NCBI GenBank assembly: GCA_937952455.1
Contig: CALFYU010000076.1
Coordinates: 1-39,919 of the forward strand
Source: an uncultured Planctomycetaceae bacterium
GTDB taxonomy: Bacteria > Planctomycetota > Planctomycetia > Planctomycetales > Planctomycetaceae
Length of the DNA: 39,919 nucleotides
Direction: 5' to 3'
Shown here: piece by piece, positions 5,034 to 30,011 of the stretch
Layout: the number at the start of each line of letters is the position of its first letter
Numbering within the stretch: position 1 is the stretch's first letter
Program-made: the position numbers and the translations under genes
Notes under the pieces: generated by a model
What the model saw: the letters and a program-made list of their open reading frames with translations, nothing else
What the model was told of the DNA's origin: nothing
Database searches by the model: none

Positions 5034-6497
5034 TTACCGCTTGGCGTTGATCGTCGTCCATTCCTCGACCGCGTGCGGCTGGGTGTCCAAGTCGCTTTTG
5101 ACGGACGCTTCAATTTTGTGATGTCCCGCCCGGACGCCTTGGGCGCGTACCCGCAGTTCGAGGGTGCTGTCGGCGGCGAATCGCGGGATCGTCTCGAAGT
5201 CCCAACCTCCTTGCTGCACCTTATGCGGCAATTGGATCGGTTCGCCGTCTTGTGTCGCTTCGACGCCCAGCAACTTCAAACCGGTCGGCGGCGTCAACGC
5301 GATGTCCACGTTGCGGACGTCTTGGAAACCACGATTGTGAACCGTCACAACGTAAGTGATTTCTGCATCGACGGCGGCAGGTTCGCCTTCGTCGCGGAGC
5401 TTCAGGTCCAATACGCCGCGCGGGGGGACAATTTCCAGGCCGGTTTCCTTGCGGAGTGAATCTCCGCCAGTCGTCGCCAGTTCGACGTCGAACTTGGCCA
5501 CATCCGCGGCGCGCCCACATTCGAACTCGACCTGCAGTTGCAGGACTTCGCCCGGTTGCAGATCGCCAAGATTCCATGATAGCGTATCGGTCCCCTCCTC
5601 GGCTCCTTCGGTCGCCTCTTTGGGGATCAACGCATCGTCGAAGGTCAACGTGGACTGCATTCCCTTGAGCACGCGGTCGCTGATGTTGGTGATCGTCAAC
5701 GTATACTCCGCCCGACTGCCGACGCTGCGGCGGTCCGGACCGATCACATCCAACGACAACGACTGTTTCGTGACGTCGATGCAGACCGACTTCCAGACGA
5801 TCTCCTGCCCGGCCGATTTGACGGTGAACTGTGCGCAGTGCCGCCCCAATTCGCGGGCAATCAGCGTCAGTGACATCGTCTGTGCATCTCCCGCATCCAC
5901 GCCGCCGATATTCCGCCGCAACTCCTTCTCGACCTTGCCGGGAAACTGCAGCCCGTCTTCAAAGGTGCAGAAGACTTCGACGTCATCGACTGGAATGTCC
6001 GTTTGGTTGCGAATCGTGACCTCAAACCGCACGTCCCCCCCTTGCGTCGCATGTTCGGGCCGGACGATGTCCAATAACAGACGCGCCGGCGTCGTGCCGG
6101 TCTCCTCATCGTCGTCGGTCACGCGGGGCGCCGTCAGCGGGGGCGGTGCGAACAGCGGACCGGTCTCCTCCTCCGGGAGAATTTCGTAAGGGGGAATCTC
6201 GGCCTCGACTTCGGGAATGATGACGTTGTCGTTCGGCTCCGGTTCGACTTCGATCACTTCCGGTGACCCCAGATCGGGAACCGTAACCGCCGGTTTGTCG
6301 ACGCGGGTCGATTGTCCGGGCGGGGGCGTGACGGTCGTTTCCGGACCCCGGTAGCCGCGATACTGCGGCGCATACGCCGTCTGATCTTCAATCGTGCCGA
6401 ACGGAGTATTGCGTCCTGGCGCCACGCATCCGCCGGCAATCAGAACCATCGACAAGACGATGAGCCAATATGGCGACTTTTGAATTTTCTCGGACAT
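5034..6497 (-). CDS. DUF11-repeat (OmcB-like) lipoprotein
   Basis: Lipobox-like LIAGGC and a Pro/Glu-rich linker. Three Ig-like repeats follow (VRFEVTIRN, AEYTLTITN, ITYVVTVHN), with LSWNLGDLQPGE typical of DUF11. Confidence 0.8.
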   Translation of the reverse strand: MSEKIQKSPYWLIVLSMVLIAGGCVAPGRNTPFGTIEDQTAYAPQYRGYRGPETTVTPPPGQSTRVDKPAVTVPDLGSPEVIEVEPEPNDNVIIPEVEAEIPPYEILPEEETGPLFAPPPLTAPRVTDDDEETGTTPARLLLDIVRPEHATQGGDVRFEVTIRNQTDIPVDDVEVFCTFEDGLQFPGKVEKELRRNIGGVDAGDAQTMSLTLIARELGRHCAQFTVKSAGQEIVWKSVCIDVTKQSLSLDVIGPDRRSVGSRAEYTLTITNISDRVLKGMQSTLTFDDALIPKEATEGAEEGTDTLSWNLGDLQPGEVLQLQVEFECGRAADVAKFDVELATTGGDSLRKETGLEIVPPRGVLDLKLRDEGEPAAVDAEITYVVTVHNRGFQDVRNVDIALTPPTGLKLLGVEATQDGEPIQLPHKVQQGGWDFETIPRFAADSTLELRVRAQGVRAGHHKIEASVKSDLDTQPHAVEEWTTINAKR

Positions 6498-6917: not shown

Positions 6918-8438
6918 TCACTTGACGTCCAGCGCCTTGCGAAGTTCGTCAGTTTCTTCGCGGAAGGTTCGCACCTTGTCCGGGTCGAGGTAATTGTCGA
7001 TCAACTCGCCGGTTCGGGAACAGAGGCGTTCGATTCGACGTTGCGCGGAGACGTCGCGCCGTTCGGCGGCGATGCTCACGCCCCGTTCGCGAATGATGGT
7101 TAGCTCGGTTTGCAGCGGCGCCGGCCCGGTGATTTGGTCGATTCGGTTTAGGAACTCGTCAACGCTCTTCCAATCGTTCGCCTTGATGGCGGCCCGCGTG
7201 CGGGCCATCAGCACGGCCCGCTTGGCGACCGCATCGATGACCTTGGCCTCCAATACCGCCAACTGGCCTTCGACGTTCAATCGCACTGTGTCGTCTGGAA
7301 GCAGGACTTCCGATTCCTGTTCCAAGCCCGGCACGAGCGGCACGCGGGCCAACAGCGATTTGCCGCTATGAACGGCCAGCAGAATCGGCTTGTGTGAGCC
7401 GTCGCTGGGAATCGTCACCGTCCCTTCGCGGTCGGACATGAACGTGACCGGTTCCGGCTTTTCCGCTGCCGACTGCTCGTCATCGGCCCCCTCTTCGGTG
7501 GCTTGTTCGGTCTGTTCTGGAACGATGCTAACGGTCAATCCCGATAAAGCGCGGTCGGAGAATTGTTGCGAGACGAACTTCAGCCGCGTGGATTCGAATC
7601 GCGGGCTCACGCCCTGCGCCCAGGCTTCGATCAACCGCCGCCGGCGTGCGGTCAGCGGAACTCGGAGGCCGCTGACAATATCGCAAGTCGCCAGCGCCCG
7701 ATCGACATCGGCGACGACAAAGTAGGTCCAAGGAATCTCCTGGATTCGCAACACCTCCCCTTCGCGGGAGAGGAAGCGGTAAAAGGGCGTGAACAATCGC
7801 CCCGGCTTCAGTTGCGTCTGACTGGGATCATCCGGCAAAAGTTCGCCCGCCCGAATCTGCAGCGTCACCTGCTCCTCGTCGAAGTCCGCGATTTCCACCA
7901 CCGGCTCAAACAAGTCGCTCAACACGCCAAACAGCCGGTCCGCGATTTCGCTGCGGCGGACCGATTTTGCCGAGAGCACTTCGCTGGTGAACCGCGACGT
8001 CGAATCCCAGCACTTTCCCGATACCAGATATCCGCCGCCGTCCGGCTCGACCGTCAGAAAATAAAGTTTGTCGCAATCGGCCGCTTCGGGAGTTTCATGA
8101 TCGACCGGCAGACGCTGCAGCGTTTGCGCAGTGGCGGGGAGCAGCCGCGACGTTTCCGCAATCTCGACCCGGCACATCCGCCCCCAATAACCCTCGCAGC
8201 GGTCGCGCAGTTCGTCCAAAACGCGCCCGCGAAATGCCGAGGGAAACCCCACGTGATCATCGAACGCCAGATCGACCCGCACGTCATACGGTTTGAGCGG
8301 CAGCGGAATCGGCGTTTCTTCCTCTTCAGCGCGGGCAACGGAACAGAGAACCAGCGCCGCGATCAACGATGCCGCGGCAGCCCAACGGTTCTGCCACAAT
8401 GGTCGAGATGCGTTCATATTGTTATAGCGATCGATCAT
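6918..8438 (-). CDS. Exported hypothetical protein (putative TolB_N/CsgG-like plus FlgT_C-like domains, helical C-terminus)
   Basis: Signal peptide ending VARA/EEE. Start is likely ATG 8438 (4 nt after the upstream stop) or 8417. The domain calls are pattern-based inference. Confidence 0.7.
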   Translation of the reverse strand: MIDRYNNMNASRPLWQNRWAAAASLIAALVLCSVARAEEEETPIPLPLKPYDVRVDLAFDDHVGFPSAFRGRVLDELRDRCEGYWGRMCRVEIAETSRLLPATAQTLQRLPVDHETPEAADCDKLYFLTVEPDGGGYLVSGKCWDSTSRFTSEVLSAKSVRRSEIADRLFGVLSDLFEPVVEIADFDEEQVTLQIRAGELLPDDPSQTQLKPGRLFTPFYRFLSREGEVLRIQEIPWTYFVVADVDRALATCDIVSGLRVPLTARRRRLIEAWAQGVSPRFESTRLKFVSQQFSDRALSGLTVSIVPEQTEQATEEGADDEQSAAEKPEPVTFMSDREGTVTIPSDGSHKPILLAVHSGKSLLARVPLVPGLEQESEVLLPDDTVRLNVEGQLAVLEAKVIDAVAKRAVLMARTRAAIKANDWKSVDEFLNRIDQITGPAPLQTELTIIRERGVSIAAERRDVSAQRRIERLCSRTGELIDNYLDPDKVRTFREETDELRKALDVK

Positions 8439-8442
8439 TTTG

Positions 8443-10986
8443 TTATTTGAGCGGGTACCACGGTTGTACGACCCACTGTTCGATGCCGTCATAAGTCGAG
8501 ATGGGAGCTTCCGGGACGCCCCGCACGGTCTTACGGACGAGCAGGTATTCATCGGTTTCCCACAGCGGAATCAATTGCACCTCCGCCAACAAATCGCGAT
8601 GCAAGGCGTGCAACAAACCTTCGGCGCGCGCCCAATCGGACACGCCGTCCAGTTCGAGAAGTTTTTGCCGCAACCAATGTGGAAGTCGTTCCAAGTCGGC
8701 GATTTCCGCCTGATCGGTTCCCGTCAACAGCGGCCACAGTTCGACGGCCGGCTCGCGCATGGAGACTTTTCGATAGGCCACGTCCCAATTGTCGTCGGTG
8801 ACCGGTGCGTCAACGTCGGCCAAAGTGACGTCCAGTCCGATCCGCGACCAGGCGGCGATCAGCTGTTTGGCGACGGCGCGGCTCTCCGGGTCGGGCGGGG
8901 CGCGGAGCGTCAGTTTGGGAAACGCACCCCCCAATTCCTTCCGCGCGGCGACGGAGAGGGCCACGGCGAGTTCCAGGTCGTATGAGAGCGGCTGCACCGC
9001 CGGGTCGTAGGCATAACTCGTTTGTGGAAACGGCGCGGAGGTGAGCCGCGCCTTTCCATTGTTGGGGGCTTTGAGGACGAACTCCTCCAATAACCGTTCC
9101 GAATCGATACAGGCCGCCATGGCCCGCCGCAAGGACCGGCTGCGGAGCGCCTTGTTGCGGATGTTGAATTGCACGACGTGCGTCTTGGGCAGTTGATACT
9201 TATGCACGAAGAACTGTGGATGATCGCGGAGGACGTCCACATCCCGCAGCGGCACCTGCGGCAACATGTCGACCTGACCGCGCAGCAGCGCCTGAATCGC
9301 CTTTTCGTGCGTGTCGTACTTCTGTTCAATCACTTCGGCGACGTGAAACTCCTTCTCGTCGGCCGGTTCGGGAATCGCCCGCCGGTACGTGACGGACTGT
9401 GCATCGCGCTGCGACAGCTCGAACGAACCAGGAGCACTCAACGCGTAAGAAAACAGCGATTCGGGACGCAAGGGGACGCTGTCGAATTCGACATCGAACA
9501 CAAACGGCGATTTCAGCGACACCGACGAGATGCGGTCGGAGAGCCGCTCGTCGAACGTCTGGCTGTCCGATCTTAATTTGTCCGCCAATTGCCGAATCAT
9601 GGGCATCGCATTGGTCACCGGCTGCGACTCCCAGGTCTGCCGAAACGGCCGCAATTCAAATCGAATCCGCCGGCCAAGGTTGGTTGGCTCCCATTCGTTC
9701 AAATAGCGGCTGCGGTAGCGGACGATCTGTTCATCCAAAAAGTCCGGCTCAAATAAAGCCGATTGCGTCAATTCGCGCTGGCGGTCATCCGCCGGCGTGC
9801 GATCCAACGGCGAGACGTCGTCGCCAGGTAGCGTGAGTACACCGACGCGCAGCTTTTGATGCCGCCGCGCCAGCCGGGCGTAGAGCGTCCGCAAACCCGA
9901 GGCGGTCGGCCAAATTTGCGTGGCGGTTTCAGTCGCCGCGAGAGCCTTTTCGATGTCACCCGCTGATTCCGCCGCCTGCGCTTGGTCCATCAACTCCGCG
10001 GTGCGGGCTGTCATTGTTTCCGTCCAGCGGGCCGCCGTGCGATGTTGGGGATACTGCGTTTCGAGACGCTTCAGAAAATGCCGTGCGCGCCGGTAATCCC
10101 CCGCGTCATAGGCCGAGGAGATCATTCCGTCGGCCGCTTCACCCATCGCTTCGGATAACTGCGGAAAATCGGGAACGCGCTGGTGCAATTGCTCCAAGTC
10201 GACGAACGCCAGTTCGTGTTTCCCTTCCTGCTGCAGGCGCTTTGCTTCAGCGAACAACAACCGCTGTTCGCGAAACTCCAATCCCGGCCATTGGGAATTG
10301 CGTCTTCGCAACGCGACGACCATTTCATAAGCTTCGCTGATCTGCCCATTGTCGAGAAAGGCGTCGATCTGCTTGAGCATCATGTCTTCGAAATAGATGA
10401 TTTGCTTGATTTCCCGCGTCTTGATGAAATATTCGCGGTCGGCCTCCTCGGTGATGTTCTCCGCGTCAAAGGGCATGTGCACTTTCACATAGGCCAACGA
10501 CTTGCGCCACAATCGCCGCGCATTCTCCAGCGCCTCCCCTTCGAGCGGATTGCCCTCTTCGTCCCGTCCGAGGTCCTGCGGCTCGTATTTGCGAGGTTCC
10601 TTGGCCCATTCGGCTAAGGTTTCCAACGTATTCGGGCGCGGTTCGACCGGCTGCACCACGACGACCTGTTCCTTGAAGTTCAATACCACCCAATCTTCGG
10701 CTGGTCCTTTCATCAGTTGTTCGACCGAGAGCGGCTGCATCTCCTCCAACGTCGGCAACGGCTTTTCTTCGGCCTCCGCTTCTCCCTCGGGATTGTCGGC
10801 GGCCGGCTCGTCCGGATTCTCGGCGGCGTTTTCCTCGGCAGGCGGCTGGTCGGCCTGTTGATCCTGCGCAGGGGCAACCGCCGTCAGTAACAGCCACACC
10901 GCGCAGAAGGCGAACATCGACAGCAGCATGCGCAGCCAACCATCAGTGCGGCGCCGCGCCGGCTGGGAATTCAATCGAGAGATCAT
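8443..10986 (-). CDS. TPR-containing ABC-type family-5 (peptide/nickel) solute-binding-like protein
   Basis: Signal peptide (VAPA/Q), acidic linker and TPR-like helices. The C-terminal region resembles SBP_bac_5 (ALLRGQVDML, FNIRNKAL..LRRAMA..ID, YDLELA, WSRIGLDV, LIPLW). ATGA overlap with the upstream gene. Confidence 0.8.
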   Translation of the reverse strand: MISRLNSQPARRRTDGWLRMLLSMFAFCAVWLLLTAVAPAQDQQADQPPAEENAAENPDEPAADNPEGEAEAEEKPLPTLEEMQPLSVEQLMKGPAEDWVVLNFKEQVVVVQPVEPRPNTLETLAEWAKEPRKYEPQDLGRDEEGNPLEGEALENARRLWRKSLAYVKVHMPFDAENITEEADREYFIKTREIKQIIYFEDMMLKQIDAFLDNGQISEAYEMVVALRRRNSQWPGLEFREQRLLFAEAKRLQQEGKHELAFVDLEQLHQRVPDFPQLSEAMGEAADGMISSAYDAGDYRRARHFLKRLETQYPQHRTAARWTETMTARTAELMDQAQAAESAGDIEKALAATETATQIWPTASGLRTLYARLARRHQKLRVGVLTLPGDDVSPLDRTPADDRQRELTQSALFEPDFLDEQIVRYRSRYLNEWEPTNLGRRIRFELRPFRQTWESQPVTNAMPMIRQLADKLRSDSQTFDERLSDRISSVSLKSPFVFDVEFDSVPLRPESLFSYALSAPGSFELSQRDAQSVTYRRAIPEPADEKEFHVAEVIEQKYDTHEKAIQALLRGQVDMLPQVPLRDVDVLRDHPQFFVHKYQLPKTHVVQFNIRNKALRSRSLRRAMAACIDSERLLEEFVLKAPNNGKARLTSAPFPQTSYAYDPAVQPLSYDLELAVALSVAARKELGGAFPKLTLRAPPDPESRAVAKQLIAAWSRIGLDVTLADVDAPVTDDNWDVAYRKVSMREPAVELWPLLTGTDQAEIADLERLPHWLRQKLLELDGVSDWARAEGLLHALHRDLLAEVQLIPLWETDEYLLVRKTVRGVPEAPISTYDGIEQWVVQPWYPLK

Positions 10987-13900
10987 TGAGCCGCGCCTCC
11001 CTCATCGGTCTTCACTGCCACGAACCCGCCGTCGGGCGTAATCACGACTGGATGACTACCCAGCAAATACGGACCGTCAGCAATCGCCTGTTGCACATCG
11101 AGCCGCTTGACGACCTCGCCCGATTCCGGATTGATGCGGAGGACTTCGCCGTTTTGCAGCGCCGCTACGAGGGTCCCGTCTACCATCTGCGGCGCGCCGG
11201 CCAGCGACGTTGCGGGCAGCGGCACCTCCCACAATTTCGTCAGCGTCTCGCCGAATTCAAAACAAAGCAGCCGGTCCCGTCCGCTTTGAACGAGTATCCG
11301 GTCGTCGACGACCCACGGCGCACGCGGCGCGGGTTGCGGTAGCGCTGCTTTGCCCAGTACCTCTAGCGAACGCCCGTTGAGAACACTGAGTGCGGGTTCG
11401 GCATCAGCGATCAACAGCCGGTCCCCGAAAACGCGGAGACCGACGTCCACGCCCTGCTGAAGCGGAATCGACGCGACCTCTTCGAAGAACGCGACCTGAT
11501 TTTGCTCGCGCAGTTGCAAACGGGAGAGTTTTCCTGACGTCGTGAGGACGATCACCTGATCTTCCTCAAACGGCACGAGGTCCTGGAAGCGGTCGACCGC
11601 TTGACCGCTGACCGGCAACGGAAAATCTTGGATCTGCCCGCTGGCGGATGAGCGCCCCAAGACTTGCAGGCTGCCTGATGCGGGCAGAATCAGCCCGCGA
11701 CCGAAGGCGATCGGATCGGTCTGCAGCGGCTCGGCCAAAGCTTGATCAAAGACGAGCCCGCCGGTGGGATTGATCACCCACAGATGCGGCTTCTCGCCGG
11801 TGGTGTAGACGGCCAGGCGTCCGTCCGACAGCCGCGCCGCATGATAAGTGGCCTCGACGTCGTCTTGGATTTTTAGTTGCGTCAGCGGCCGTGCTTCGAT
11901 GCCCCCTTCGGCGAGCCGTTTGGCGGTCACCAGAAACAGGTCTCCCGCCGATGTGACGCAAACGAGGGAGCCATCGTCGGGATTCGGCGCCGCCGTCGCC
12001 AACACCGGCGCGCCGACCACCACCAGCCATTCACCGGTCATTTGTTGCCGGTTGACGCCGCGGAAAAAGACCGCCTGGCTCGTCGGAAATCGCCCCGCGA
12101 CGAAAATCGAGTTCCCCGATGTCTGTAGCGGCTGTGTGCTCAGGCCTACCCGCATCCGCTGCTTCACATCTTCTTCCATTTGGTCCAGCGTCACGTGGAA
12201 CTTGCGCAAATCGCGGGCCGCCATCCACATCTGGTCGTCCGGCCCGACCGCCAGATAAATCGGGCAGCCGATCGGCGATTCGTTCTGCGCGCTGTCGACA
12301 TACGTCAGCGGCTTTTGACCGGTTTCTTGCGTCACCGTAAACGCCGTAACCCGTTCTCCGCTGGAAGGGATAAACAACCGATTCCCCCGCAACACCGGCG
12401 AATCGAGCACGTGCCCCATCCGCCCGGCGTTGTCTTGATAGGAAGCGACTTCCTTAAGTCCCCGCTCCGCTTCAGTGACGTCGTACAGCCGCACGCGGCA
12501 GTTGTCCGCCTGGTTATTCTCAATGGCCAACAAATACGGCCCCATCGTCAGCAGCGGCGCTTCAATGACCCCCGGCGCATGGCCGCTGTCGAAGACCTGC
12601 ACGCACTCCAGCGGGCGGCGGGAGAGGATATACATCACCCCGCGATGCCCGGCGACGAACAGAAATGCGCCCGATTCTGAAATGGCGGGACTGGACGAGA
12701 TCGGCTGCGCAAATTTCAGCCGCGACGTCAGCTCACCGGTCTCCAAGTCGAACTGACACAACTCACCTGCTTCGGTCGGCAGAAACACTTGGCCTTCGTC
12801 GATCACCGGCTTTCCGGACGCCCGGCCCGAGACGGCGTTGCGCCAAATCAGCGAGCCATCCGCCTTCGACACGAGCATCAGTTCATTGTTCCGCGTGTCA
12901 AACATTAACAGCGCCGGATCCGGGACCGATTGCTCGATCGGGAAAAACGGCGTGTCATACCCGATCGCGCGCCGCCAGCGCGGCGTGCCGTTGATGGTGT
13001 CGACCGCCATGCAGGCGTTCTCGGCCAGCACGATGACGCTCTCGTTTTCCGACTGGTTGCCCCCTTGTGCACGGGTATGACGGACCAGCGACAACGCCGA
13101 AGCGACATCCGACTCGCGTTCCTTTGTGGCCGCCTCAACGGATGTGGCCTCCCGTTGCACCGAACCTTTTTCGAGCTCGATGGCTTGGTTCATCAAATCC
13201 CGGATTTCGCGGTTGGAGGCAAAATCCGGATAACGGGCCAGCAGTGCCCGCCGCTCATCGAGCGCGGTGATTGCCTGCGAGTCCTGAATCGCCTGTTTGA
13301 TCTTGGCGACTGCCTCGTTAAACGTATCCTGTTTCAAGATCGCGTCGTTGGCTTCCTTTTTCACGCGGGCGACGCGGGCCAGATACGCGTCGGTATCTTT
13401 TTTGTCCGTTCCGATCCGCGTCAATAAGGTTCCCGCCTCGTCCGAAATCTCCAGAAGTTCCGGCTTGAGGCTCGACTTCGCGCTGGTGGCGGCGCCGAGG
13501 GCAATCCGCTTGATGTACTCCTCCAACTCCTGCACATTGGCCTCTTCGTTGTATTCAGGCAGGTCCTTGGACTTCTCCCGATACTCGTGAACCGACTGCA
13601 GTCCTGCTTCCCAGGCCGGCGATGATCCGGAAACGTGTTGTTGGATGCGGGTCAAACCCAATTGGATCTGTGCACTGTTGGTCGACGAGTCGCGGGGGTA
13701 GTTGACGAGGAACCGCTCGAAGCCCTTGATGGCCTGGGCGTATTTGCCTTCCTGTTTCGCCTGTGCCGCCTCCTGAAACTGGCTGTCGATTTCCTGACGG
13801 CTGTTCATAAAACGAAATGTGAGTGCCGTCAGAAGCAGGATCAAGCCTCCTCCGCCCAAGGTGAGCACCAGCGGCGACTGCAGAATTTTGCGTTCACCAG

Positions 13901-14588
13901 GGCGAATTTTCCGGCCTCCCGTCCAATTCGTCTTCTCGCTCGTCTTTGTTCGTGCGCTCGGGGCGGGGCGTTCTTTGGGGGCGGGTTTTTCCGCCGCGGC
14001 CGGCCGGCCGGAATCCTCATCGTCCGACGCCGCCGGAATTTCGTCATCGCTGGTGATAATATCGCCCAAACTCAATTCGGCGATCGATTCCGAGTGCGGA
14101 GCCGCCACCGGCTCCTTCTTGCGGCGTTTCTTACGGCGGGGACTCGGCTCCGGCTCCTCTTCAAAAACCGGCGTCTCGTCCGGCTCCTCAGGCGGCGCAT
14201 ACAGCGACTCCCGCTCGGCACGGACCGTCTCCTCGTCGTCGAGCGGCTTCAGCTCGAATTCGCTCAGTTCCGCCTTGGCACGATCGTCGTGCAGGGGATC
14301 ATTCTCATCGACCAGCGTGATCTTGACCTTGCCGATATTAATCACGTCGCCGGCTTTAAGCGTCGATTTCGCAACCCCCTTGCCATTGACGAGCACTTCA
14401 GAGTTGGCCGCCGAATTGATGCGGTAGCCATACTTCTGCCAGCTGATGCGGCAATGCATGGCCGCAATACTGTCGTCGTCGATGTGGACGTCATTCGAAG
14501 GATGGCTGCCGATCGACACCGGCAAATCCTTGGAGAGTTGGACCACGTCCGTTTCGCCTGAAGGAAGTCGAATTTTTAGGGCGGGCAT
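10983..14588 (-). CDS. FHA domain - TM helix - TPR - PQQ-type beta-propeller protein
   Basis: N-terminal FHA fold (VSIGSHPSNDVHI..HCRI..VLVNG..LKAGDVINIG) and a charged linker, then one TM helix (LVLTLGGGGLILLLTALTF). A BamD/YfiO-like TPR (YAQAIKGFERFLVNYP) and PQQ-like repeats (NGTPRWRR, DGSLIWRN, DLETGEL, NPESGEVV) follow. Confidence 0.85.
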   Translation of the reverse strand: MPALKIRLPSGETDVVQLSKDLPVSIGSHPSNDVHIDDDSIAAMHCRISWQKYGYRINSAANSEVLVNGKGVAKSTLKAGDVINIGKVKITLVDENDPLHDDRAKAELSEFELKPLDDEETVRAERESLYAPPEEPDETPVFEEEPEPSPRRKKRRKKEPVAAPHSESIAELSLGDIITSDDEIPAASDDEDSGRPAAAEKPAPKERPAPSARTKTSEKTNWTGGRKIRPGERKILQSPLVLTLGGGGLILLLTALTFRFMNSRQEIDSQFQEAAQAKQEGKYAQAIKGFERFLVNYPRDSSTNSAQIQLGLTRIQQHVSGSSPAWEAGLQSVHEYREKSKDLPEYNEEANVQELEEYIKRIALGAATSAKSSLKPELLEISDEAGTLLTRIGTDKKDTDAYLARVARVKKEANDAILKQDTFNEAVAKIKQAIQDSQAITALDERRALLARYPDFASNREIRDLMNQAIELEKGSVQREATSVEAATKERESDVASALSLVRHTRAQGGNQSENESVIVLAENACMAVDTINGTPRWRRAIGYDTPFFPIEQSVPDPALLMFDTRNNELMLVSKADGSLIWRNAVSGRASGKPVIDEGQVFLPTEAGELCQFDLETGELTSRLKFAQPISSSPAISESGAFLFVAGHRGVMYILSRRPLECVQVFDSGHAPGVIEAPLLTMGPYLLAIENNQADNCRVRLYDVTEAERGLKEVASYQDNAGRMGHVLDSPVLRGNRLFIPSSGERVTAFTVTQETGQKPLTYVDSAQNESPIGCPIYLAVGPDDQMWMAARDLRKFHVTLDQMEEDVKQRMRVGLSTQPLQTSGNSIFVAGRFPTSQAVFFRGVNRQQMTGEWLVVVGAPVLATAAPNPDDGSLVCVTSAGDLFLVTAKRLAEGGIEARPLTQLKIQDDVEATYHAARLSDGRLAVYTTGEKPHLWVINPTGGLVFDQALAEPLQTDPIAFGRGLILPASGSLQVLGRSSASGQIQDFPLPVSGQAVDRFQDLVPFEEDQVIVLTTSGKLSRLQLREQNQVAFFEEVASIPLQQGVDVGLRVFGDRLLIADAEPALSVLNGRSLEVLGKAALPQPAPRAPWVVDDRILVQSGRDRLLCFEFGETLTKLWEVPLPATSLAGAPQMVDGTLVAALQNGEVLRINPESGEVVKRLDVQQAIADGPYLLGSHPVVITPDGGFVAVKTDEGGAAQ

Positions 14589-14745
14589 ATTGTACTCAGT
14601 CGCTATTGGAGTGTGCGTGTCACGGCATCATGGCGACGCCGGTTCGCCTCGAAGTCGTTCTGTTCAAAAAAGCGGCCGTGCCGCTGGATATCCAAATGGG
14701 GTCGTTACCGCCATTGCCGCGGCGGCGATAATACGGTCGCGGAGG

Positions 14746-15375
14746 TCATTCATCGTCACCGGCGGCGACGGTCACCATGCGGATTTTCTGCATGGCGACT
14801 TCATTTGCCGCGTCGAACACAGCGACCGTCGTTTCGTGAAACGAATCGGCATGGGCGTTGATCACCATTTCGCGGCGCCCGGAGGAGTCCATCGACTGTT
14901 GCAACATCTCGGCCAAATTGCCGCCGGCCGGCAGCGGCTCGTCGTCGACGACAATTGTGTTGTCCGCTTGGATTTCCACGATAATCGCGTCTACCTCCAG
15001 TTCCTCCAGCGAAATGGGCGTGGATTGCGCCCCTTCGCGCTGCGGATCAGGCGGCGGGACCGCGATTGCTTTCTGCAAGCTTAAGCTGGCCGTCAGAATA
15101 AAGAAAATCAATAATTGAAACGTGACGTCGACCATCGGCGTGAGATCCAGCTCTGCTTCTTCAACGTCGCGTTTGCGCAGTTGAAACTCCTCAACTTCCG
15201 CATCAGTGTCCAGATACCGGTGCGGCTCATACGGCCGGTGGGACCGCATGATCGCCTCGGGCGAGGGAACGGTCGCCACGTCGCCGCACTTCGGGCAGTT
15301 CACCCGCCGCCCGGCGGCGCGTGAGGGAATCTTGATTTTTTTGCGGCACTTCGGGCAGCGAAATTTAATGGGCAT
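14746..15375 (-). CDS. exbD: ExbD/TolR family protein with an N-terminal zinc ribbon
   Basis: LDLTPMVDVTFQLLIFF TM motif with the essential Asp and a C-terminal 'INAHADS.HE..V.VFDAA' domain. N-terminus is CPKC-x16-CPKC. Confidence 0.88.
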   Translation of the reverse strand: MPIKFRCPKCRKKIKIPSRAAGRRVNCPKCGDVATVPSPEAIMRSHRPYEPHRYLDTDAEVEEFQLRKRDVEEAELDLTPMVDVTFQLLIFFILTASLSLQKAIAVPPPDPQREGAQSTPISLEELEVDAIIVEIQADNTIVVDDEPLPAGGNLAEMLQQSMDSSGRREMVINAHADSFHETTVAVFDAANEVAMQKIRMVTVAAGDDE

Positions 15376-15465
15376 CGCAACTGGCCGCCGATCAATCGCG
15401 GCGGATTTCTAAGGATTGTGGTTCCATTCCTCCTTCAAGGAGGCCCGGCCGGTACCGGTCGGGTG

Positions 15466-15921
15466 TCACGGCTCCTTCTCTTCGACGGCGATGAAGAATT
15501 CCACGCCGTCGATCTCGGCAATCGCGCGGGCCACCTTTTGCACGTCGCCGTGTGAGATTTCGCGCTCGGCGAGAATCATGACTTTGTTGATATTCGCCGC
15601 AACCTGCTCTTCAACATGCCGCCGCACGCCGTCGATGTCCACTTCTTGTCCGTTATCCAACAAGATCGACGCCGCTTCGCCCCGCCCGGCCTTAAGCGTG
15701 ATCGCCGTACTTTGGTTTCCGCTGACTCCGTCGCCGTATTTGGCCTTAGGCAAATCCAGCGCATCGGCCGGGCTCATCGTCGACTTCACCAGAAAATAAA
15801 TCAGCAACAGAAACGTGACGTCGATCATCGGTGTGATGTCGAGGTCGTCTTCCTGTGCCCGCTTGGCCGTTTTGAATTGGCCGCCTTCGTCACCGGCGAA
15901 GACGCTTCGGCGTTTTCTCAA
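15466..15921 (-). CDS. exbD: ExbD/TolR family protein
   Basis: LDITPMIDVTFLLLIYF, LDLPKA and ILAEREISHGDV motifs. The TTG start overlaps the exbB stop. Confidence 0.9.
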   Translation of the reverse strand: MRKRRSVFAGDEGGQFKTAKRAQEDDLDITPMIDVTFLLLIYFLVKSTMSPADALDLPKAKYGDGVSGNQSTAITLKAGRGEAASILLDNGQEVDIDGVRRHVEEQVAANINKVMILAEREISHGDVQKVARAIAEIDGVEFFIAVEEKEP

Positions 15922-16586
15922 GATTCCCGTCCTCCCTTGCCGGTGAGGGCCACCTCATAATCATCCAAAAACTCACCGACCCAGTGCTGAACGCTGTCCT
16001 GCAGCCGGCCGATCCGCACGTTGATCAAGGCCCCGGCCAACACCAGCGGAATCGCCACCGCCAAACCGGCTGCCGTCGTAAACAGGGCCACGCTGATGGC
16101 GCCGGCGAGCTGTTCGCCCCCTTCGCCGCCGGCGCTTTGTGCCAAATCCAATTGTTGAAACGCGCTGATCATGCCGATCACCGTTCCCAACAGTCCCAGC
16201 ATCGGGGCGCTCTTGACGATTGTCCCCACCCACGACATCCGGTATTCCAAATCGGCCAGGATCTCCCGCTCAAAGGTTTCCGCCAGGCTGCGGCGGAGAC
16301 GGGCCATCGACTGTTCCTTCTTATTCAGCGCAAACAACACCAACTGCGGCACCGCCTTGCTCCAGTAAGCGGGAGAGTCGCACATTTCCGCGACCGCTTC
16401 AAAGTCGCGCTTTTGCAGGTTGCCGCGAACCTCTTCGAGAAATTCCTCGGCGGCCGCGTTGGAAAACTGCTTCTCCTGAATGCGTCGCAACAACAAGATC
16501 ACCGTGAAGGCGCCGTACAAAGCGACCAGGGCCAGCATCACATAAATGAAATTGCCGCCCCAGTCGAGAAGTTGGGTATAGTCCAT
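15918..16586 (-). CDS. exbB: MotA/TolQ/ExbB proton channel family protein
   Basis: SAPMLGLLGTVIGMISAF and ISVALFTTAAGLAVAIP motifs; three TM helices. Confidence 0.92.
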   Translation of the reverse strand: MDYTQLLDWGGNFIYVMLALVALYGAFTVILLLRRIQEKQFSNAAAEEFLEEVRGNLQKRDFEAVAEMCDSPAYWSKAVPQLVLFALNKKEQSMARLRRSLAETFEREILADLEYRMSWVGTIVKSAPMLGLLGTVIGMISAFQQLDLAQSAGGEGGEQLAGAISVALFTTAAGLAVAIPLVLAGALINVRIGRLQDSVQHWVGEFLDDYEVALTGKGGRES

Positions 16587-16694
16587 TGCGTGTTAACCAG
16601 TTCTTAAGGATCGTGGTGAAGTGGCCACCTTCCATCGGCAGGCGACACAACCGCCGCCTGCACCGTAACTCTTCCAGTGGGCACTGCTGTCAAT

Positions 16695-17591
16695 TCAACG
16701 AAAGAGGATCTGCCGCGTGACGACAAACTTGTATCCGCTGCCGGCCTCCTTGATCGCGAAATAGGTCCGGCGAATCTGTTCGGCGGGTCGATTTTGATAG
16801 TCCCGCTCAAGTTGCGCGAGTTGATTCTCCATCTTGTCCGGAACGAACTGAAAGATGTTCAGTCCGGTCACGTCGATGCCCGCCTTTTGGAATAGTTGGG
16901 CATCGGCCGCGCGGCGGCCTCCCCCTTGCCAGGTCAGGTACAACCGTTTCTCGTTTTCGCCCGATTTCACCCGTTTGACGTCGGGCCGCGGCTTGGAAAA
17001 ACCCGACACATAGACCAATTCCTGCCCCTGGATCACGCCGAACACCACGCCGAAGTAATCCAGCCGCCGAGCGTATTCCGAGAGGGTGATCTGATCGTCG
17101 TAACGGACAAACCACCGCTGGTCGCGCGGCAGGCCCCCTTGCCCCTCGCCCACGCCCAAGGCGCGGCGGCCTGTCCCCGAAGCGCTCCCCGGTTTGCCAG
17201 CATTGACGGCGTCGAGTTCCAGTTGGCGGTTGGTCTGTTCCACCGCCTGATCGGCCAGATCGATCACGTTGTCCAACAACTCTTCGACTTCGACTTCGTC
17301 CGACTCGACCTCCGCCAGCGACGGGTCGAGCGTTTCTTCCGCGGGCGATTCCAACAACAGCGTCTCGTCGATGGCGCCGTCCTCACTTCCGCCGGGCAAT
17401 TCGATCAATTCCATGGCCACGGCATCATTCGCCTGTGCCGGGCGGTTGATGAAGTGCACGGCCACTTCCCAGCTGGCGGCGATCGAGACGCCCACCACCA
17501 GGGCGATCAGCCAGGCGGCCACTTTGTCATAGCGGGTTACGTTCAGCACGGGGGAATGTGCCGGGTTCGATTTGTCGCGTAGTGACGGCAT
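16695..17591 (-). CDS. Single-pass membrane protein with TonB/TolA-like topology (hypothetical)
   Basis: N-terminal TM helix, very acidic linker, Gly-rich hinge (GKPGSASGTGRRALGVGEGQGG) and a ~140-aa globular C-terminal domain. Lies directly upstream of exbB. Confidence 0.7.
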   Translation of the reverse strand: MPSLRDKSNPAHSPVLNVTRYDKVAAWLIALVVGVSIAASWEVAVHFINRPAQANDAVAMELIELPGGSEDGAIDETLLLESPAEETLDPSLAEVESDEVEVEELLDNVIDLADQAVEQTNRQLELDAVNAGKPGSASGTGRRALGVGEGQGGLPRDQRWFVRYDDQITLSEYARRLDYFGVVFGVIQGQELVYVSGFSKPRPDVKRVKSGENEKRLYLTWQGGGRRAADAQLFQKAGIDVTGLNIFQFVPDKMENQLAQLERDYQNRPAEQIRRTYFAIKEAGSGYKFVVTRQILFR

Positions 17592-17677
17592 CTTGTCGTG
17601 TTAGTGATTTGAGAGAATGCGGCAGCCGGGCACGCGGTGAGCGAGGTTCGGCGACTCGAGGGCAGGGAATCAGTAGC

Positions 17678-17840
17678 GGGTGAGTTTCGTTTCAGTGGTT
17701 TGTCAGGGTTTCTCTTTTCGATTGTGTGCCACTGGCTATGTCAGTGTCACCATCAATGTGTGCGAAACGTGCAAAACACTGGGAAAGCCAGTGGCACGCA
17801 AATTCTTTGGTCTGACAAAACACGCGTTTTCAAAACACCC
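17678..17840. repeat. Nested inverted-repeat element (REP doublet / MITE-like)
   Basis: Inner IR: GTGCCACTGGCT-atgt-CAGTGT (17726-17747) / ACACTG-ggaa-AGCCAGTGGCAC (17776-17797). Outer degenerate 29-bp IR: 17678-17706 / 17812-17840 (GGGTG...GTG.TTTGTCAG). Confidence 0.65.
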
Positions 17841-17873
17841 ATAAGGTGCCGGCGATAATCATTCGTCAGCCGG

Positions 17874-19604
17874 CTATTCTTCCGCGCTCAACAGGTCGTC
17901 ACGTTCGTCGTAAGGCCGGACGGTGAGGTACCACTCTTTCCAGCGCGCAATCGCCTGCTGGCGTTCTTTGTCTGTCGGTTGATTCGGCAGACCGTAGCCG
18001 TCGATGCGTTTGCTGAGAAATCTCAGCGCATTGCGGGCTTCGACCATCGTGTCCAAATTGGGGTCGCTCAGTGCCTGAATCAACGTCGGCACCACGGTGA
18101 TATCCTGGCTGCGGCCCAGTGCCCACATGGCGGTCCGCCGCACTTCATCGTTTTTCACAGTGGCGAGTTTCAGCAATTTATCGGTCTTGCCCACCAGCGC
18201 CTTGGGGTCCTCCAGCACGACCTTCTCGACCAGGGCTTCTTGTGCCTCGAAGAAATTCGCGTTTTGCGGGTCTTCCAGAACCGACAACAGTTCGTCCACG
18301 GGACCGGAGATTTTGCGCTGTTTTACCGTGCCATCTTCGATGGACGTAATGGCGCTTAAGTCTTTCGGTAGTCCGCGACCGCCGGCCAGCAGTCCGCCGC
18401 CGATCCGTTTGGCCGGCCGCCGACGGCCCAACGTCTTGTGCGTCGCGCGGGTCAGAAACATCAAGCCGAACGCCGTGGTCGGCACAGCTCCCGCCTGTCC
18501 CGTCCAACCCCCCGTCGGTAACTGCTGGCGGACCAGATGACTCGCCCCGTCCAGGTACCAGCTGTGGTCTCCCAACTTGTCATCGAGTTCCGCCAGGGCC
18601 ATCGCCCGTTCCAGACTGTACAGGTAGTAATAAGGCCACCCCGTCGGCTTCTCGATCTCGTAATTACCGGCCAACCACCGTAGTCCCCCGCCAATGCCCT
18701 TGGTTAACGTGCTGTCCGGGATAATCGGGCCCCGCGGCTTGCTTTTTCTGACCGCTTCCTTCTCCAATTCCGCTTCGACGGCATCGGGGTCTTCCAGAAC
18801 GCCGAATTTCTTGCGTGCCGCTTCGCGCTGTTTCTTCTCAGCAGACGTCTCCTCCGAGATCGGTGATCCGCCCTTATTCGAGGGATACAAGAACATGCGG
18901 CAGATGCACAGACTCCCCACCCCGGCCGCGGTCATACTGTGCGTTGTGCGGTGGTAGTTATTCGTCGTGTCGCCGGGCCGATAGGCAAATCCTCCGTCCC
19001 CCGCCTGACGCGCTGCATGCCAGCGGGCAGTCCGGCCGAAGCCCGGCAAATCGACCGTCGCCCCAGCCATCGACGCTTCCCACAGCCCCAGCATCGCATA
19101 TTGCGTCTGACTCGTATCCCCCATTTCATCGGCACCGGGTTGGCTCGGATAATCCCAGCCTCCAGTGGAGCGCTGCCCCGCGGCCAGATAGTCCGCCAGG
19201 ATCTGGATCTCTTTCTCATATCTCTCCGGATCACTGTTGGCGAACGCCATAATGAAGCAGGTCGCAACATAGTTGGCTGTGCGCTTTTGCGGTGGATCAA
19301 ACGTCCCCTCGCTGCACCGCGCGGCCATCTCGTCCAATGCCTCTTGGATGATCGGATTCGTCGGTTTCACGCCCGCCTTGAGCAAGGCCGTCACGCCGAT
19401 AGATGACAGATCGATGCGCGTTTTCTGGATGTTTTCCAGGAGATACGCCTTGGCCTTTTCGATGGAATTCTCGATCTGGGCCTCGGTCGCAGGTTCAGCC
19501 CCTCGGCACGGAGCGCCGGCGCACACCAGTGCGACGGACGTCAATATCACCAATCTCCAGACGAAAGGTCGATCGGTCATGCGGTTCATAAGTGGTCCCC
19601 GCAT
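17874..19604 (-). CDS. Exported prenyltransferase/squalene-oxidase-repeat (alpha/alpha barrel) protein with C-terminal HEAT repeats
   Basis: Signal-peptide-like N-terminus; QW-like repeats (GQRSTGGWDY, RQAGDGGFAY, QQLPTGGW) plus GDTSQTQYAMLGL and YYYLYSLERA. HEAT repeats VRRTAMWALG..VPTLIQALSD..ARNAL. A GAGGAG SD favours the ATG at 19604. Confidence 0.82.
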   Translation of the reverse strand: MRGPLMNRMTDRPFVWRLVILTSVALVCAGAPCRGAEPATEAQIENSIEKAKAYLLENIQKTRIDLSSIGVTALLKAGVKPTNPIIQEALDEMAARCSEGTFDPPQKRTANYVATCFIMAFANSDPERYEKEIQILADYLAAGQRSTGGWDYPSQPGADEMGDTSQTQYAMLGLWEASMAGATVDLPGFGRTARWHAARQAGDGGFAYRPGDTTNNYHRTTHSMTAAGVGSLCICRMFLYPSNKGGSPISEETSAEKKQREAARKKFGVLEDPDAVEAELEKEAVRKSKPRGPIIPDSTLTKGIGGGLRWLAGNYEIEKPTGWPYYYLYSLERAMALAELDDKLGDHSWYLDGASHLVRQQLPTGGWTGQAGAVPTTAFGLMFLTRATHKTLGRRRPAKRIGGGLLAGGRGLPKDLSAITSIEDGTVKQRKISGPVDELLSVLEDPQNANFFEAQEALVEKVVLEDPKALVGKTDKLLKLATVKNDEVRRTAMWALGRSQDITVVPTLIQALSDPNLDTMVEARNALRFLSKRIDGYGLPNQPTDKERQQAIARWKEWYLTVRPYDERDDLLSAEE

Positions 19605-19882
19605 CGAGCGCTCCTCGGCTAGGGGAAATCGGGGGGAGTGCACGGCGTCAGGACTGTGCAGCACGCACATCGTCACCGTACAAAGTAGCTTTCGATCACA
19701 TTAAAATTCTACAGGCCCCCATTCGGCATTGTCAATGACGTAAGCGACAATGCGCGGGACGGCGACAATTGCACCGTTTGCTATTATCGCGTCCGACCGG
19801 TTAGTCTGTCCTGGCAGTGCAGGGCCGCACGCCCTCGGTGCGGATTGCCCGCCGCGACAACATCTTGCAGGAGCCACGCACT

Positions 19883-25600: not shown

Positions 25601-25767
25601 GAACCCTCGAGGACTCGCCCGATTCCTCGGCCCGACACCTGATCGGGTTTTATCTCGCGCAAATCAACCAGGAGATGATCGACCCGGTCCCGCCCAGCGA
25701 TCGCGTGCCGGTGTTATTCGCCGATGGCAACGAAACCGATCCATCCTCTTCCGACGAATCGAAGTAA
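22645..25767 (+). pseudogene. Multi-pass membrane (GT-C-like) plus TPR protein, interrupted by one in-frame TAG at 23890-23892
   Basis: ORFs 22645-23892 and 23899-25767 share a frame and are separated only by TAG-GCC-TTC. The stop falls inside a TM helix (GRAVTVLACAA*AFMAGTGWL). The N-half has about 11 TM segments with H.RSG..DVFSFT...PW...WL and WANL motifs; the C-half is TPR-rich. Could be a nonsense mutation, a base-call error or readthrough. Confidence 0.7.
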
Positions 25768-28809: not shown

Positions 28810-29100
28810 CGTTTTTGTTCTCCTTCAGTGTGACTTCCAATGTGACGCTAAAAACTCTTGGACGCAGATCGTAAATTCCGCCAGTGCACCCACGATCGTC
28901 TCGCCGCAAAAAACAACCCCCGCTGGACTGAAATCAGTCGACCATTGACGGTAAACCCAGTGAGGAGCGGGGACAGTCAAACATGTGGACCGCCGCCGCG
29001 AGACCCAACAATTCGCTGCCGCCTGACAGGTGCATCTGGGCAATAACCGCGAATAAGCGGGTGCAAAAAAATAAAACAGCAACCCTATCGAGCGGAAGAC

Positions 29101-29117
29101 TGCGCGATCCTTGCGCA
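29101..29117. promoter_or_regulatory. NtrC-like binding box near glnA
   Basis: Perfect palindrome TGCGC-N7-GCGCA, compared with the NtrC consensus TGCAC-N7-GTGCA. Confidence 0.5.
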
Positions 29118-29204
29118 AAACTTGCACATTCATTCGGCGGCTTGGCCAAGCTTGGTTAGCCAAACTGCGAGAATAACGTGCTGCGGCCGCCGCCTCAGCC
29201 AATC

Positions 29205-29221
29205 CGCAATCAGCGTGCCAA
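29205..29221 (-). promoter_or_regulatory. Sigma54 (-24/-12) promoter upstream of glnA
   Basis: Minus strand TTGGCACGCTGATTGCG matches TGGCACG-N4-TTGC. Confidence 0.75.
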
Positions 29222-29442
29222 TTCGCGATAGCTCTCCCGATGTGACCATCGCTTTGCAGCCGCCGACTCGTCTCCTTCATCAGCGAAGTCGCCCATGATA
29301 ACTTCCACATTTACAGAATGAAACCGAAACGGCTTCGCGTGGGCGATTTTCATTCGGGTGATCGGGGACGGGAGAAATTCGCCTCCCGCGCCCCCCGGCC
29401 GCAGCACAGCCGGGAGGCCTCGAGGACAGGGAACAGCGAATT

Positions 29443-29802
<360 letters not shown>

Positions 29803-30011
29803 TCAAGGGTTTTGCGGTAACGGAAATGCCGACCGGCTGCGGTGGAGATGGGGACACGACGTTGCCGCCGCGCCCCATCTCACCGATCCGCGTCCTGCGA
29901 CACGTCCAATCCATTTGGTCACAGCCGGGCACTCGCCCGCCTCGCTCGACCGCGTCGCAAGGCGACGAGCGAGGCGGCTCTCTCCTAGGAGCCGTAAGGG
30001 TCCCCAACGCT

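What the first reader, a model, noticed from the sequence alone, without database searches (positions are those of the whole stretch)
6918..19604. Candidate undescribed proton-driven envelope machine: ExbB + 2xExbD + TonB-like + FHA/propeller + orphan SBP + prenyltransferase-barrel operon
Seen: eight co-oriented genes, several translationally coupled (overlaps at 15918-15921 and 10983-10986, 4-nt gap at 8439-8442). The window has no TonB-dependent receptor, Pal, canonical TolB, or ABC permease/ATPase. Known: a TolQ + two TolR stator, a membrane protein with a cytoplasmic FHA domain, a zinc-ribbon module and periplasmic TPR proteins are the parts list of the Myxococcus Agl-Glt motility machine (AglR/Q/S, GltG, GltJ). 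ExbBD/TolQR convert proton motive force into mechanical work. Inference: a planctomycete-type trans-envelope motor distinct from Ton and Tol-Pal. It could serve macromolecule uptake into the enlarged periplasm, membrane invagination or tethering, budding, or export of a surface structure. Individual genes get generic annotations, and I do not recognise a characterised system with this composition.
Basis: partly seen in the sequence, partly recalled or inferred. Interest (0 to 1): 0.8.

Follow-up and report, generated by a model that had tools for sequence, protein, structure and literature searches.

The report
Core planctomycete proton-driven envelope motor
Eight neighbouring genes, whose relatives occur mostly in single copy in nearly all sampled genomes of one class of planctomycete bacteria, encode a proton-channel motor and novel partner proteins that likely pull on the cell envelope, in a class where the usual Tol-Pal parts were not found and TonB receptors are scarce.

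Summary
The cluster is real, and it is a near-universal system of class Planctomycetia. The 298-aa 'TonB-like' gene (T) is in 145 of 151 class genomes and orf8 in 140 of 151; its own ExbB type is single-copy in 105 of 151. Proton-path Thr/Asp residues are invariant. TonB-dependent receptors occur in 37 of 151, flagellar FlgH in 73, Pal and TolB_N in none, so Ton, flagellar and Tol-Pal readings fail. T has transducer topology and an unassigned C-terminal domain. Gemmata-type orthologues keep the TonB/TolA His (115 of 119); the window's lineage lost it together with the partner Ser/Trp of ExbB. The orf8 model matches FlgT and the TolB N-domain. Cytoplasmic modules swap between lineages (FHA or Ser/Thr kinase; Zn-ribbon or GYF-like), as in Agl-Glt, but the Glt parts are not matched. 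Best reading: a localised, Tol-like force machine for envelope remodelling (architecture about 0.8, this output about 0.4); macromolecule uptake is the main rival. No outer-membrane target was found, and it is probably dispensable in the laboratory. I found no description in print. The scan had no look-alike of this stretch, but noted a different barrel-headed transducer operon in other planctomycetes.

The parts
17874..19604 (-). Exported alpha/alpha barrel (terpene-cyclase/prenyltransferase fold, about 40-390) plus HEAT repeats, 576 aa; likely non-catalytic scaffold or partner of T. Start uncertain (ATG 19604, 19589 or 19580).
   Evidence: HEAT Pfam; squalene-hopene cyclase E 9e-10; N-terminal hydrophobic stretch; G162, D163, S165, Q168 in 39 of 39; upstream of T in 38 of 64 loci
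16695..17591 (-). T, predicted force transducer, 298 aa: one membrane helix (about 20-49), disordered acidic linker (63-151), confident alpha/beta C-terminal domain (152-298) with no assigned fold
   Evidence: AlphaFold model; no fold match; 145 of 151 class genomes; His-bearing helix in 115 of 119 Gemmata-type orthologues
15918..16586 (-). ExbB/TolQ-type pentamer subunit, 222 aa; T135, T170, T171 invariant; TM1 Ser/Trp pair replaced
   Evidence: PF01618; Thr in 42 of 42; TM1 register; own clade 100/99; one copy in 105 of 151
15466..15921 (-). ExbD/TolR 1, 151 aa, TTG start overlapping the ExbB stop; Asp34 invariant
   Evidence: PF02472; alignment of 35; Asp aligns with E. coli TolR and ExbD
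14746..15375 (-). ExbD/TolR 2 with a cytoplasmic Cys4 zinc ribbon, 209 aa; Asp83 invariant; ribbon replaced by a GYF-like module or absent in other families
10983..14588 (-). Bitopic protein, 1201 aa: degenerate cytoplasmic FHA, membrane helix (about 235-253), TPR/helical region, PQQ-type beta-propellers; FHA replaced by a Ser/Thr kinase or a short helical domain in other families
8443..10986 (-). Exported TPR + family-5 solute-binding-protein fold, 847 aa, with no permease gene in the cluster
   Evidence: PF00496; best solved relatives NikA/DppA, E 1e-24; overlap with the upstream gene
6918..8438 (-). orf8, exported, 506 aa: FlgT/TolB-N-like alpha/beta domain, beta domain, transthyretin-like sandwich, three-helix bundle
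   Evidence: model pLDDT 86.5; Foldseek FlgT E 1e-8 and 6e-8, TolB E 3e-6 to 2e-4; domains; 140 of 151 class genomes
19706..19735 (-). Sigma-70-like promoter match (11 of 12) upstream of the barrel gene; not tested

Best explanation
The cluster encodes a proton-channel motor (ExbB with two different ExbD) that likely drives the membrane-anchored protein T to pull, through its new C-terminal domain, on a predicted periplasmic assembly (barrel, FlgT/TolB-N-like orf8, TPR-SBP, propellers), and so likely remodels or tethers the envelope at a chosen cell site in place of Tol-Pal. Shown: the genes, their conservation, the proton-path residues, T's topology, the missing Pal/TolB_N matches and the swapped cytoplasmic modules. 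Inferred from ExbBD/TolQR knowledge: 5:2 stoichiometry with a D1-D2 heterodimer, and docking of T's helix on ExbB TM1 through a rewired, His-free interface. Inferred and untested: T's periplasmic partner, positioning by the Zn-ribbon/GYF and FHA/kinase modules, and the output (outer-membrane handling during growth and budding). Architecture about 0.8; this output about 0.4.
For: Motor intact: ExbB T135/T170/T171 in 42 of 42; D34 and D83 invariant and aligned with the E. coli Asp. T as transducer: helix-linker-domain topology; ExbB follows T in 54 of 76 loci; Gemmata-type T has His in 115 of 119 helices, with A/T/S/G four residues before it, and its ExbB keeps Ser at the TolQ Ser28 register, the contact described for TolA His22 (PMC12215075 passages). 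In three genomes of family f83 only T's C-terminal domain matches and this ExbB is not found at E<=1e-45; one of them, read out, has a lipoprotein-like T and no motor genes in the locus. One system when unlinked: the ExbB-D1-D2 trio is intact in 19 of 20 loci fetched around ExbBs that lie away from T or in rearranged loci; G193 and G228 lack T, this ExbB and orf8 together. Tol-like output: orf8 matches TolB/FlgT; the propeller protein's TPR resembles CpoB/YbgF, E 3e-6; Pal 0 of 151, TolB_N 0 of 151; the system is mostly single-copy, and no glycan-degrading family was among the recurrent neighbours scanned.
Against: No outer-membrane or peptidoglycan-binding partner was found: lipobox-like motifs in 3 of 39 barrels, 0 of 44 orf8, 1 of 42 SBP, and no beta-barrel in the cluster. 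The window's own T has no His or SHLS motif. T's domain shows no similarity to TolA, and orf8 none to TolB by sequence; the structural TM-scores over the whole chain are low (about 0.2). The same T domain occurs twice in an unrelated 1175-aa membrane protein (P0186), so it may be a binding or sensor module. In Gemmata-type genomes the parts are scattered. Six of 151 genomes lack T. P. limnophila source data imply that its essential ExbB is a 274-aa paralogue, not this one. The SBP fold argues for ligand capture.
Confidence: 0.42

Rival explanations
1. The same motor energises uptake of large molecules into the enlarged periplasm: T opens or works an unlinked outer-membrane channel or fibre, and the TPR-SBP and propellers hold the cargo.
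For: Full family-5 SBP fold; TonB-dependent receptors missing in 32 of 36 f1 and 36 of 36 f79 genomes; a 2025 review states that uptake in this phylum is energy-dependent and its players unknown (PMC12673574 passage); the system is present in Gemmata-type and Planctomycetaceae genomes alike.
Against: No channel or permease gene travels with the cluster in the 80 + 40 loci read; near-invariant single copy is unlike substrate-specific uptake loci (own knowledge); family f2 has both this system and receptors (14 of 19).
Confidence: 0.25
2. It works like Agl-Glt/Nfs: a motor that moves or deposits a surface structure (holdfast, stalk, fibres, adhesin), recruited by cytoplasmic Zn-ribbon/GYF and FHA modules.
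For: Two different ExbD; Zn-ribbon/GYF-like swap on ExbD2 and FHA on a bitopic protein; GltJ carries ZnR + GYF (PMC11135422 passages); GltG carries FHA and AglR5QS is the predicted motor (PMC11761067 passages); the degenerate FHA fits a scaffold role.
Against: GltG model matched at 22.5 bits against a cut-off of 650, FHA region only; no other Glt model matched; no outer-membrane barrels or adhesin in the cluster; T lacks a TonB-type C-terminal domain.
Confidence: 0.17
3. It is mainly an envelope-sensing and signalling complex: periplasmic propellers and SBP read a ligand or stress, a Ser/Thr kinase transmits it, and the motor only resets the complex.
For: The propeller protein carries a whole Ser/Thr kinase N-terminally in L121 and L127; T is fused to a kinase in P0166; a kinase-family gene lies in 12 of 40 cross-family loci, directly after orf8 in 7; T survives with a changed anchor and no linked motor in G245.
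Against: Most families have no kinase domain on either protein; the FHA has Arg28 in only 8 of 27 and the loop Ser in at most 1 of 27; the motor trio is kept in nearly all carriers.
Confidence: 0.1
4. It is an ordinary Ton system serving an unlinked TonB-dependent receptor, or a flagellar accessory (orf8 as FlgT).
For: ExbB/ExbD families are shared with Ton; orf8's best structural match is FlgT.
Against: Receptors in 37 of 151 and FlgH in 73 of 151; family f79 has neither (0 of 36 each) but has T and this ExbB in 35 of 36; G193 and G228 have FlgH but lack the system; no TonB_C or receptor in the window's genome (91.6% complete).
Confidence: 0.03

Closest known systems
Tol-Pal (TolQ-TolR-TolA-TolB-Pal-CpoB)
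   Same: 5:2-type motor with invariant Thr/Asp; bitopic transducer with a long linker; a periplasmic TolB-N-like domain, beta-propellers and a CpoB-like TPR; conserved operon.
   Different: No Pal or TolB_N match in 151 class genomes; two different ExbD; T's domain unlike TolA's; His lost in most families; TolB-like N-domain and propellers on separate proteins, the propellers anchored in the inner membrane; extra SBP and barrel.
Ton (ExbB-ExbD-TonB + TonB-dependent receptor)
   Same: Motor family; His-bearing helix in Gemmata-type T.
   Different: No TonB_C domain; receptors not found in 114 of 151 class genomes; ExbB clade separate from E. coli ExbB.
Myxococcus Agl-Glt (AglRQS, GltG, GltJ)
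   Same: One pentamer subunit with two different ExbD/TolR; cytoplasmic FHA, Zn-ribbon and GYF-like modules; periplasmic TPR.
   Different: Zn-ribbon/GYF sit on ExbD, and FHA on a propeller protein, not on TonB-domain proteins; no GltA/B/H barrels or CglB; no Glt family model passed; AglR relationship not tested.
vWA-headed force transducers of PVC bacteria (PMC12204202, section 8 read)
   Same: tolQ plus two heterologous tolR plus a helix-linker-domain transducer with a non-TonB head; function unknown.
   Different: Those have an SHLS helix, a vWA head and a TPR gene; T has an unassigned head, mostly no His, and four further conserved partner genes.
Vibrio FlgT
   Different: orf8 has two more domains and is kept in non-flagellated genomes.

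Membership tests
MotA/TolQ/ExbB - MotB/TolR/ExbD ion motors | Pentamer subunit with pore Thr and partner with membrane Asp | tested here: met
Tol-Pal | Pal lipoprotein | tested here: not met
   TIGR02802 0 of 151 at E<=1e-18; controls E. coli and Caulobacter positive
Tol-Pal | TolB (N-domain joined to a six-bladed propeller) | tested here: not met
   PF04052 0 of 151; orf8 has a TolB-N-like fold but no propeller; no sequence similarity to TolB
Tol-Pal / Ton | SHLS (Ser-x3-His) transducer helix with ExbB/TolQ TM1 Ser and Trp | tested here: not met
   Window T has no His there; 7 of 120 near relatives have any His in that stretch; His present in 115 of 119 Gemmata-type orthologues; ExbB TM1 Y/F and C/L/W at the two positions (register counted from the first basic residue, not superposed)
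Tol-Pal / Ton | TolA/TonB C-terminal fold | tested here: inconclusive
   No Pfam, Foldseek or hhalign match, but the domain was not folded alone and the wide search was filled by the helix
Ton | Co-occurring TonB-dependent receptor | tested here: not met
   0 in the own genome; 37 of 151, f79 0 of 36
Agl-Glt | One TolQ-like plus two different TolR-like subunits | tested here: met
Agl-Glt | GltG/GltJ: FHA or ZnR-GYF, helix and TonB-type domain in one chain | tested here: not met
   NF033760 22.5 bits against 650, FHA region only; modules lie on other chains
Agl-Glt | Outer-membrane GltA/B/H barrels and CglB adhesin | tested here: not met
   None in the eight genes or among the recurrent neighbours scanned; unlinked genes were not searched
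Agl-Glt | ExbB orthologous to AglR | not tested
   No AglR sequence was obtained; trees lack it
vWA force transducers (PMC12204202) | vWA head on an SHLS helix | tested here: not met
   No vWA match in Pfam or Foldseek; no SHLS in the window's T
Class II terpene cyclase | DxDD general-acid motif | tested here: not met
   No DxDD in the barrel; GDTSQTQY at the position that by recall corresponds; that correspondence was not aligned by a call
ABC importer (family-5 SBP) | Linked permeases and ATPase | tested here: not met
   None travels with the SBP in the loci read; use of an unlinked permease was not tested
Flagellar H/T-ring (FlgT) | Co-occurrence with the flagellar L-ring | tested here: not met
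   FlgH 0 of 36 in f79, orf8 36 of 36 (one weak)

The most novel reading that the evidence does not exclude
This is the class-defining, energy-consuming envelope machine of Planctomycetia: a fourth kind of ExbBD-family system with its own transducer head, a His-free motor interface and kinase/FHA control, and it is the missing apparatus behind budding-site membrane handling or the unexplained energy-dependent uptake of macromolecules.
Probability: 0.25. Interest if true: 0.9.

Novelty: new variant of a known kind. Interest (0 to 1): 0.72.

Why it matters
Planctomycetia have a swollen periplasm, divide by budding (own knowledge) and take up macromolecules by an energy-dependent route whose players a 2025 review calls unknown. 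They also show no Pal or TolB and few TonB receptors here. A near-universal, mostly single-copy proton motor with defined knock-out targets (D1 Asp34, D2 Asp83, T) makes these questions directly testable in genetically tractable species. It also gives a natural case of a TonB/TolA-type transducer that lost the His thought essential, together with its partner residues on ExbB, which bears on how these motors couple to their arms.

Tried and rejected
Complex prediction of T's C-terminal domain with orf8 (45-385) and the barrel (36-395): no verdict, score 0.00, controls not folded; not evidence either way. RNA runs: no RNA holder listed. Atlas: only unnamed Planctomycetota clusters for T and orf8, with a CsgG/PEGA lead at 0.77. 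PDB sequence search with orf8: nothing under E 0.2. The DUF11 lipoprotein-like gene next door (5034-6497) was rejected as a part: no hit in the 80 loci. Upstream neighbours (TPR-peptidase, MazG, Lhr and others) are lineage-specific. Outside the class: of 205 other-class genomes in the phylum draw, 8 gave only weak matches to T's linker region; 28 gave partial SBP matches, and the two best loci read held no motor, T or orf8 match. My label 'gemmata_type' on L038 was wrong; it groups with the operon clade. My note that C286:4638-8033 is the barrel-headed transducer of earlier scan notes was wrong; C710:4142-6373 fits better. P. limnophila locus tags could not be mapped by sequence: the look-up did not return that species, and the full essentiality table is too large to read. 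PMC7533069 is not held. The Akkermansia MUL1 comparison rests on recall: searches did not give its gene content, so it was dropped.
Full report
Observation. The eight minus-strand ORFs, the two 4-nt overlaps and the 4-nt gap are as described. Other gaps are 90-282 nt, so a single transcript is not shown. The nearest named relative of T is from Symmachiella dynata, 87% identical. The window's genome (91.6% complete) has six MotA/ExbB matches, one of them flagellar, and no TonB_C or TonB-dependent receptor match; T, orf8 and this SBP type are single-copy in it.

Conservation. The best 80 of 564 confirmed genome matches to T were fetched; nearly all are labelled Planctomycetaceae or Planctomycetota. 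ExbB follows T in 54 of 76 loci with at least 1 kb downstream; all six downstream genes follow in 26 of 42 with at least 9 kb; the barrel precedes T in 38 of 64 with at least 2 kb upstream. In an even draw of 151 class genomes (own genome included; kin are not independent), T matched in 145, orf8 in 140 and this ExbB type, at E<=1e-45, exactly once in 105. The 46 misses include all 31 of f80 and all 5 of f89, whose ExbB is a divergent type. Of 40 loci that I picked across families, 11 hold all eight genes, 4 all but the barrel, 9 lack the motor trio but keep T, propeller, SBP and orf8, and 10 hold T alone. The trio is intact in 19 of 20 loci fetched around ExbBs lying away from T or in rearranged loci. 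In Gemmata-type genomes (names) the parts are scattered: orf8 stands alone; SBP and a large propeller protein were found in 5 of 5 tested; the barrel has many paralogues and no clear orthologue. Outside the class, full-length T was not found in 205 genomes searched, and two partial SBP loci held no other core part.

Motor. ExbB T135, T170 and T171 are in 42 of 42 sequences; D1 Asp34 and D2 Asp83 are invariant and align with the E. coli Asp. In a 31-row tree without MotA, 19 operon-type ExbBs form a clade (100/99). They join five Gemmata-type rows against E. coli TolQ/ExbB and five planctomycete paralogues at 92/85, which is not starred. With MotA included, support for the 19 fell to 81/76 under a long-branch warning. 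AglR was not available.

Transducer. T is modelled as one helix, a disordered acidic linker and a confident domain at 152-298 with no match by fold, family or profile. The window's helix has no His. Gemmata-type orthologues share the C-terminal domain and have His in 115 of 119 helices (120 examined, one without a helix by my threshold), preceded four residues earlier by Ala 66, Thr 34, Ser 13 or Gly 2; near relatives of the window's T have a His in that stretch in 7 of 120, and 9 of 137 representatives do. TolA His22 contacts TolQ Ser28 and Trp32 (PMC12215075, passages). Counting back from the first basic residue after TM1, Gemmata-type ExbBs keep the Ser, whereas the operon clade has mostly Tyr/Phe/Trp there and Cys/Leu at the Trp position. 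I infer that T descends from a TonB/TolA-type arm and that both sides of the interface changed together; this is one or few evolutionary events, not a statistic. In G245, G284 and G292 only T's domain matches and this ExbB is not found; in G245 T has a lipoprotein-like start and no motor genes beside it.

Periplasmic and cytoplasmic parts. The orf8 model (pLDDT 86.5) matches FlgT (E 1e-8, 6e-8) and TolB (E 3e-6 to 2e-4), with low whole-chain TM-scores; further domains are a transthyretin-like sandwich and a helix bundle. The SBP's best solved relatives are NikA and DppA. The barrel has no DxDD motif and an invariant G-D-x-S-x-x-Q; that this is the cyclase acid site is recalled. Another locus of the same genome (C710) has an ExbB-ExbD followed by a 743-aa protein with a Ser-x3-His helix and a barrel match, the kind noted earlier by the scan; by that fusion logic the free barrel is a candidate partner of T. 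No conserved lipobox was found. The propeller protein's cytoplasmic end is FHA in f1 and f79, a whole Ser/Thr kinase in L121 and L127, and a short helical domain elsewhere; ExbD2 carries a Zn ribbon, a GYF-like module (by eye; Pfam did not call it) or neither. The FHA has Arg28 in 8 of 27 and the loop Ser in at most 1 of 27, so by recalled FHA chemistry it probably does not read phosphothreonine.

What it is not. TonB-dependent receptors: 37 of 151, f1 4 of 36, f79 0 of 36. FlgH: 73 of 151, f79 0 of 36, and present in G193 and G228, which lack the system. Pal 0 of 151 and TolB_N 0 of 151, with positive controls. PMC8871954 (passages) calls Tol-Pal largely reduced in planctomycetes.

Essentiality. 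The P. limnophila TraDIS paper (PMC10632474; passages, supplements 1 and 5 in part) does not mention these families in its main text. Its essential set with orthologous groups lists one COG0811 (Plim_3131) and one COG0848 (Plim_3133), and no COG0747, COG1520 or COG1716. Insertion indices read as fractions give lengths of 274, 173, 170 and 393 aa for Plim_3131-3134 (controls: FabF 429, PlsC 289). These fit the other ExbB-ExbD-ExbD trio (L009, L038, L137, L148) better than this one. Plim_3135 and Plim_3136 come out at 584 and 306 aa, the sizes of barrel and T, with non-essential-range indices of 0.088 and 0.105. I infer that the system is probably dispensable in the laboratory. The tags were not mapped by sequence and the full table could not be read, so this is weak; a second motor could also mask a defect.

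Mechanism. Shown: parts, conservation, proton-path residues, topology, absences. Inferred: proton flow through ExbB5-D1-D2 works T's linker; T's domain pulls on a periplasmic assembly; cytoplasmic modules place or switch the machine. The Tol-like output is preferred (0.42) because the class shows no Pal or TolB, keeps this system mostly in one copy, and holds in it a TolB-N-like domain, propellers and a CpoB-like TPR. Against it, no outer-membrane or wall-binding partner was found. Uptake (0.25), surface-structure handling (0.17), signalling (0.10) and Ton or flagellar roles (0.03) are the rivals.

Novelty. Nine literature searches gave no description of this cluster; the library lacks most subscription papers, and PMC7533069 was not held. 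PMC12204202 (passages and section 8) describes vWA-headed transducers beside tolQ and two tolR in PVC bacteria, a different head and gene set. PMC11135422 and PMC11761067 (passages) give the Agl-Glt architecture. PMC12673574 and PMC8567305 were seen as passages, PMC13174399 as the first half of its text. Supplements that I did not see, above all those of PMC12204202, may list T. The scan had no look-alike of this stretch. Verdict: a new variant of the ExbBD/TolQR force-transducing machines, not a member of Ton, Tol-Pal or Agl-Glt; interest 0.72.

Noticed in passing
L009:1362-3521 (G000 C650); also L137, L148, L038: A second ExbB-ExbD-ExbD trio after a TPR gene. By inferred gene lengths it fits the essential P. 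limnophila genes Plim_3131 and Plim_3133, and it lies next to parts of the present system in L038, L137 and L148, which may mean the two motors are linked.
   Followed up: partly
L008:1-6373 (G000 C710): TPR - ExbB - ExbD - 743-aa protein with a Ser-x3-His helix and a prenyltransferase-barrel match: a barrel-headed transducer operon of the kind in earlier scan notes.
   Followed up: partly
P0186 (1175 aa): T's C-terminal domain occurs twice in a protein whose N-terminus looks like a BlaR1/M56 peptidase (by eye), so the domain is a mobile module.
   Followed up: no
P0166, P0169; L121:12984-17432; L127:6624-11123: Ser/Thr kinase fused to T in P0166 (P0169 appears to carry only a kinase tail), and to the propeller protein in L121 and L127.
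   Followed up: partly
L107:13472-14326 (G245): T with a lipoprotein-like signal in place of the membrane helix, in a locus without motor genes: a possible motor-free version.
   Followed up: partly
L112, L121; G254, G318: Tandem or near-tandem duplications of T.
   Followed up: no
L114, L124, L125 and L121: Gemmata-type T lies just downstream of, or near, a DnaK/Hsp70-family gene.
   Followed up: no
window 5034-6497 (-): DUF11-repeat protein with a lipoprotein-like signal, same strand, 420 nt downstream of orf8; not conserved with the cluster.
   Followed up: yes
window 22645-25767 (+): A 415-aa protein with no Pfam or NCBIfam match followed by a 622-aa TPR protein.
   Followed up: no
window 27397-33357 (-): Nitrogen cluster: glutamine synthetase, ammonium transporter and a BBP2-type porin.
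   Followed up: no
L010:402-4768 and L011 (G000 C741; C705:3417-4846): Two further divergent MotA/ExbB-family genes, each followed by a membrane protein with a short ExbD-like start.
   Followed up: no
L175:7269-12577 (G175, another class): Zn-ribbon membrane protein, SBP-like protein and PQQ-propeller protein in a row without motor genes; possibly a distant echo of this cluster.
   Followed up: partly
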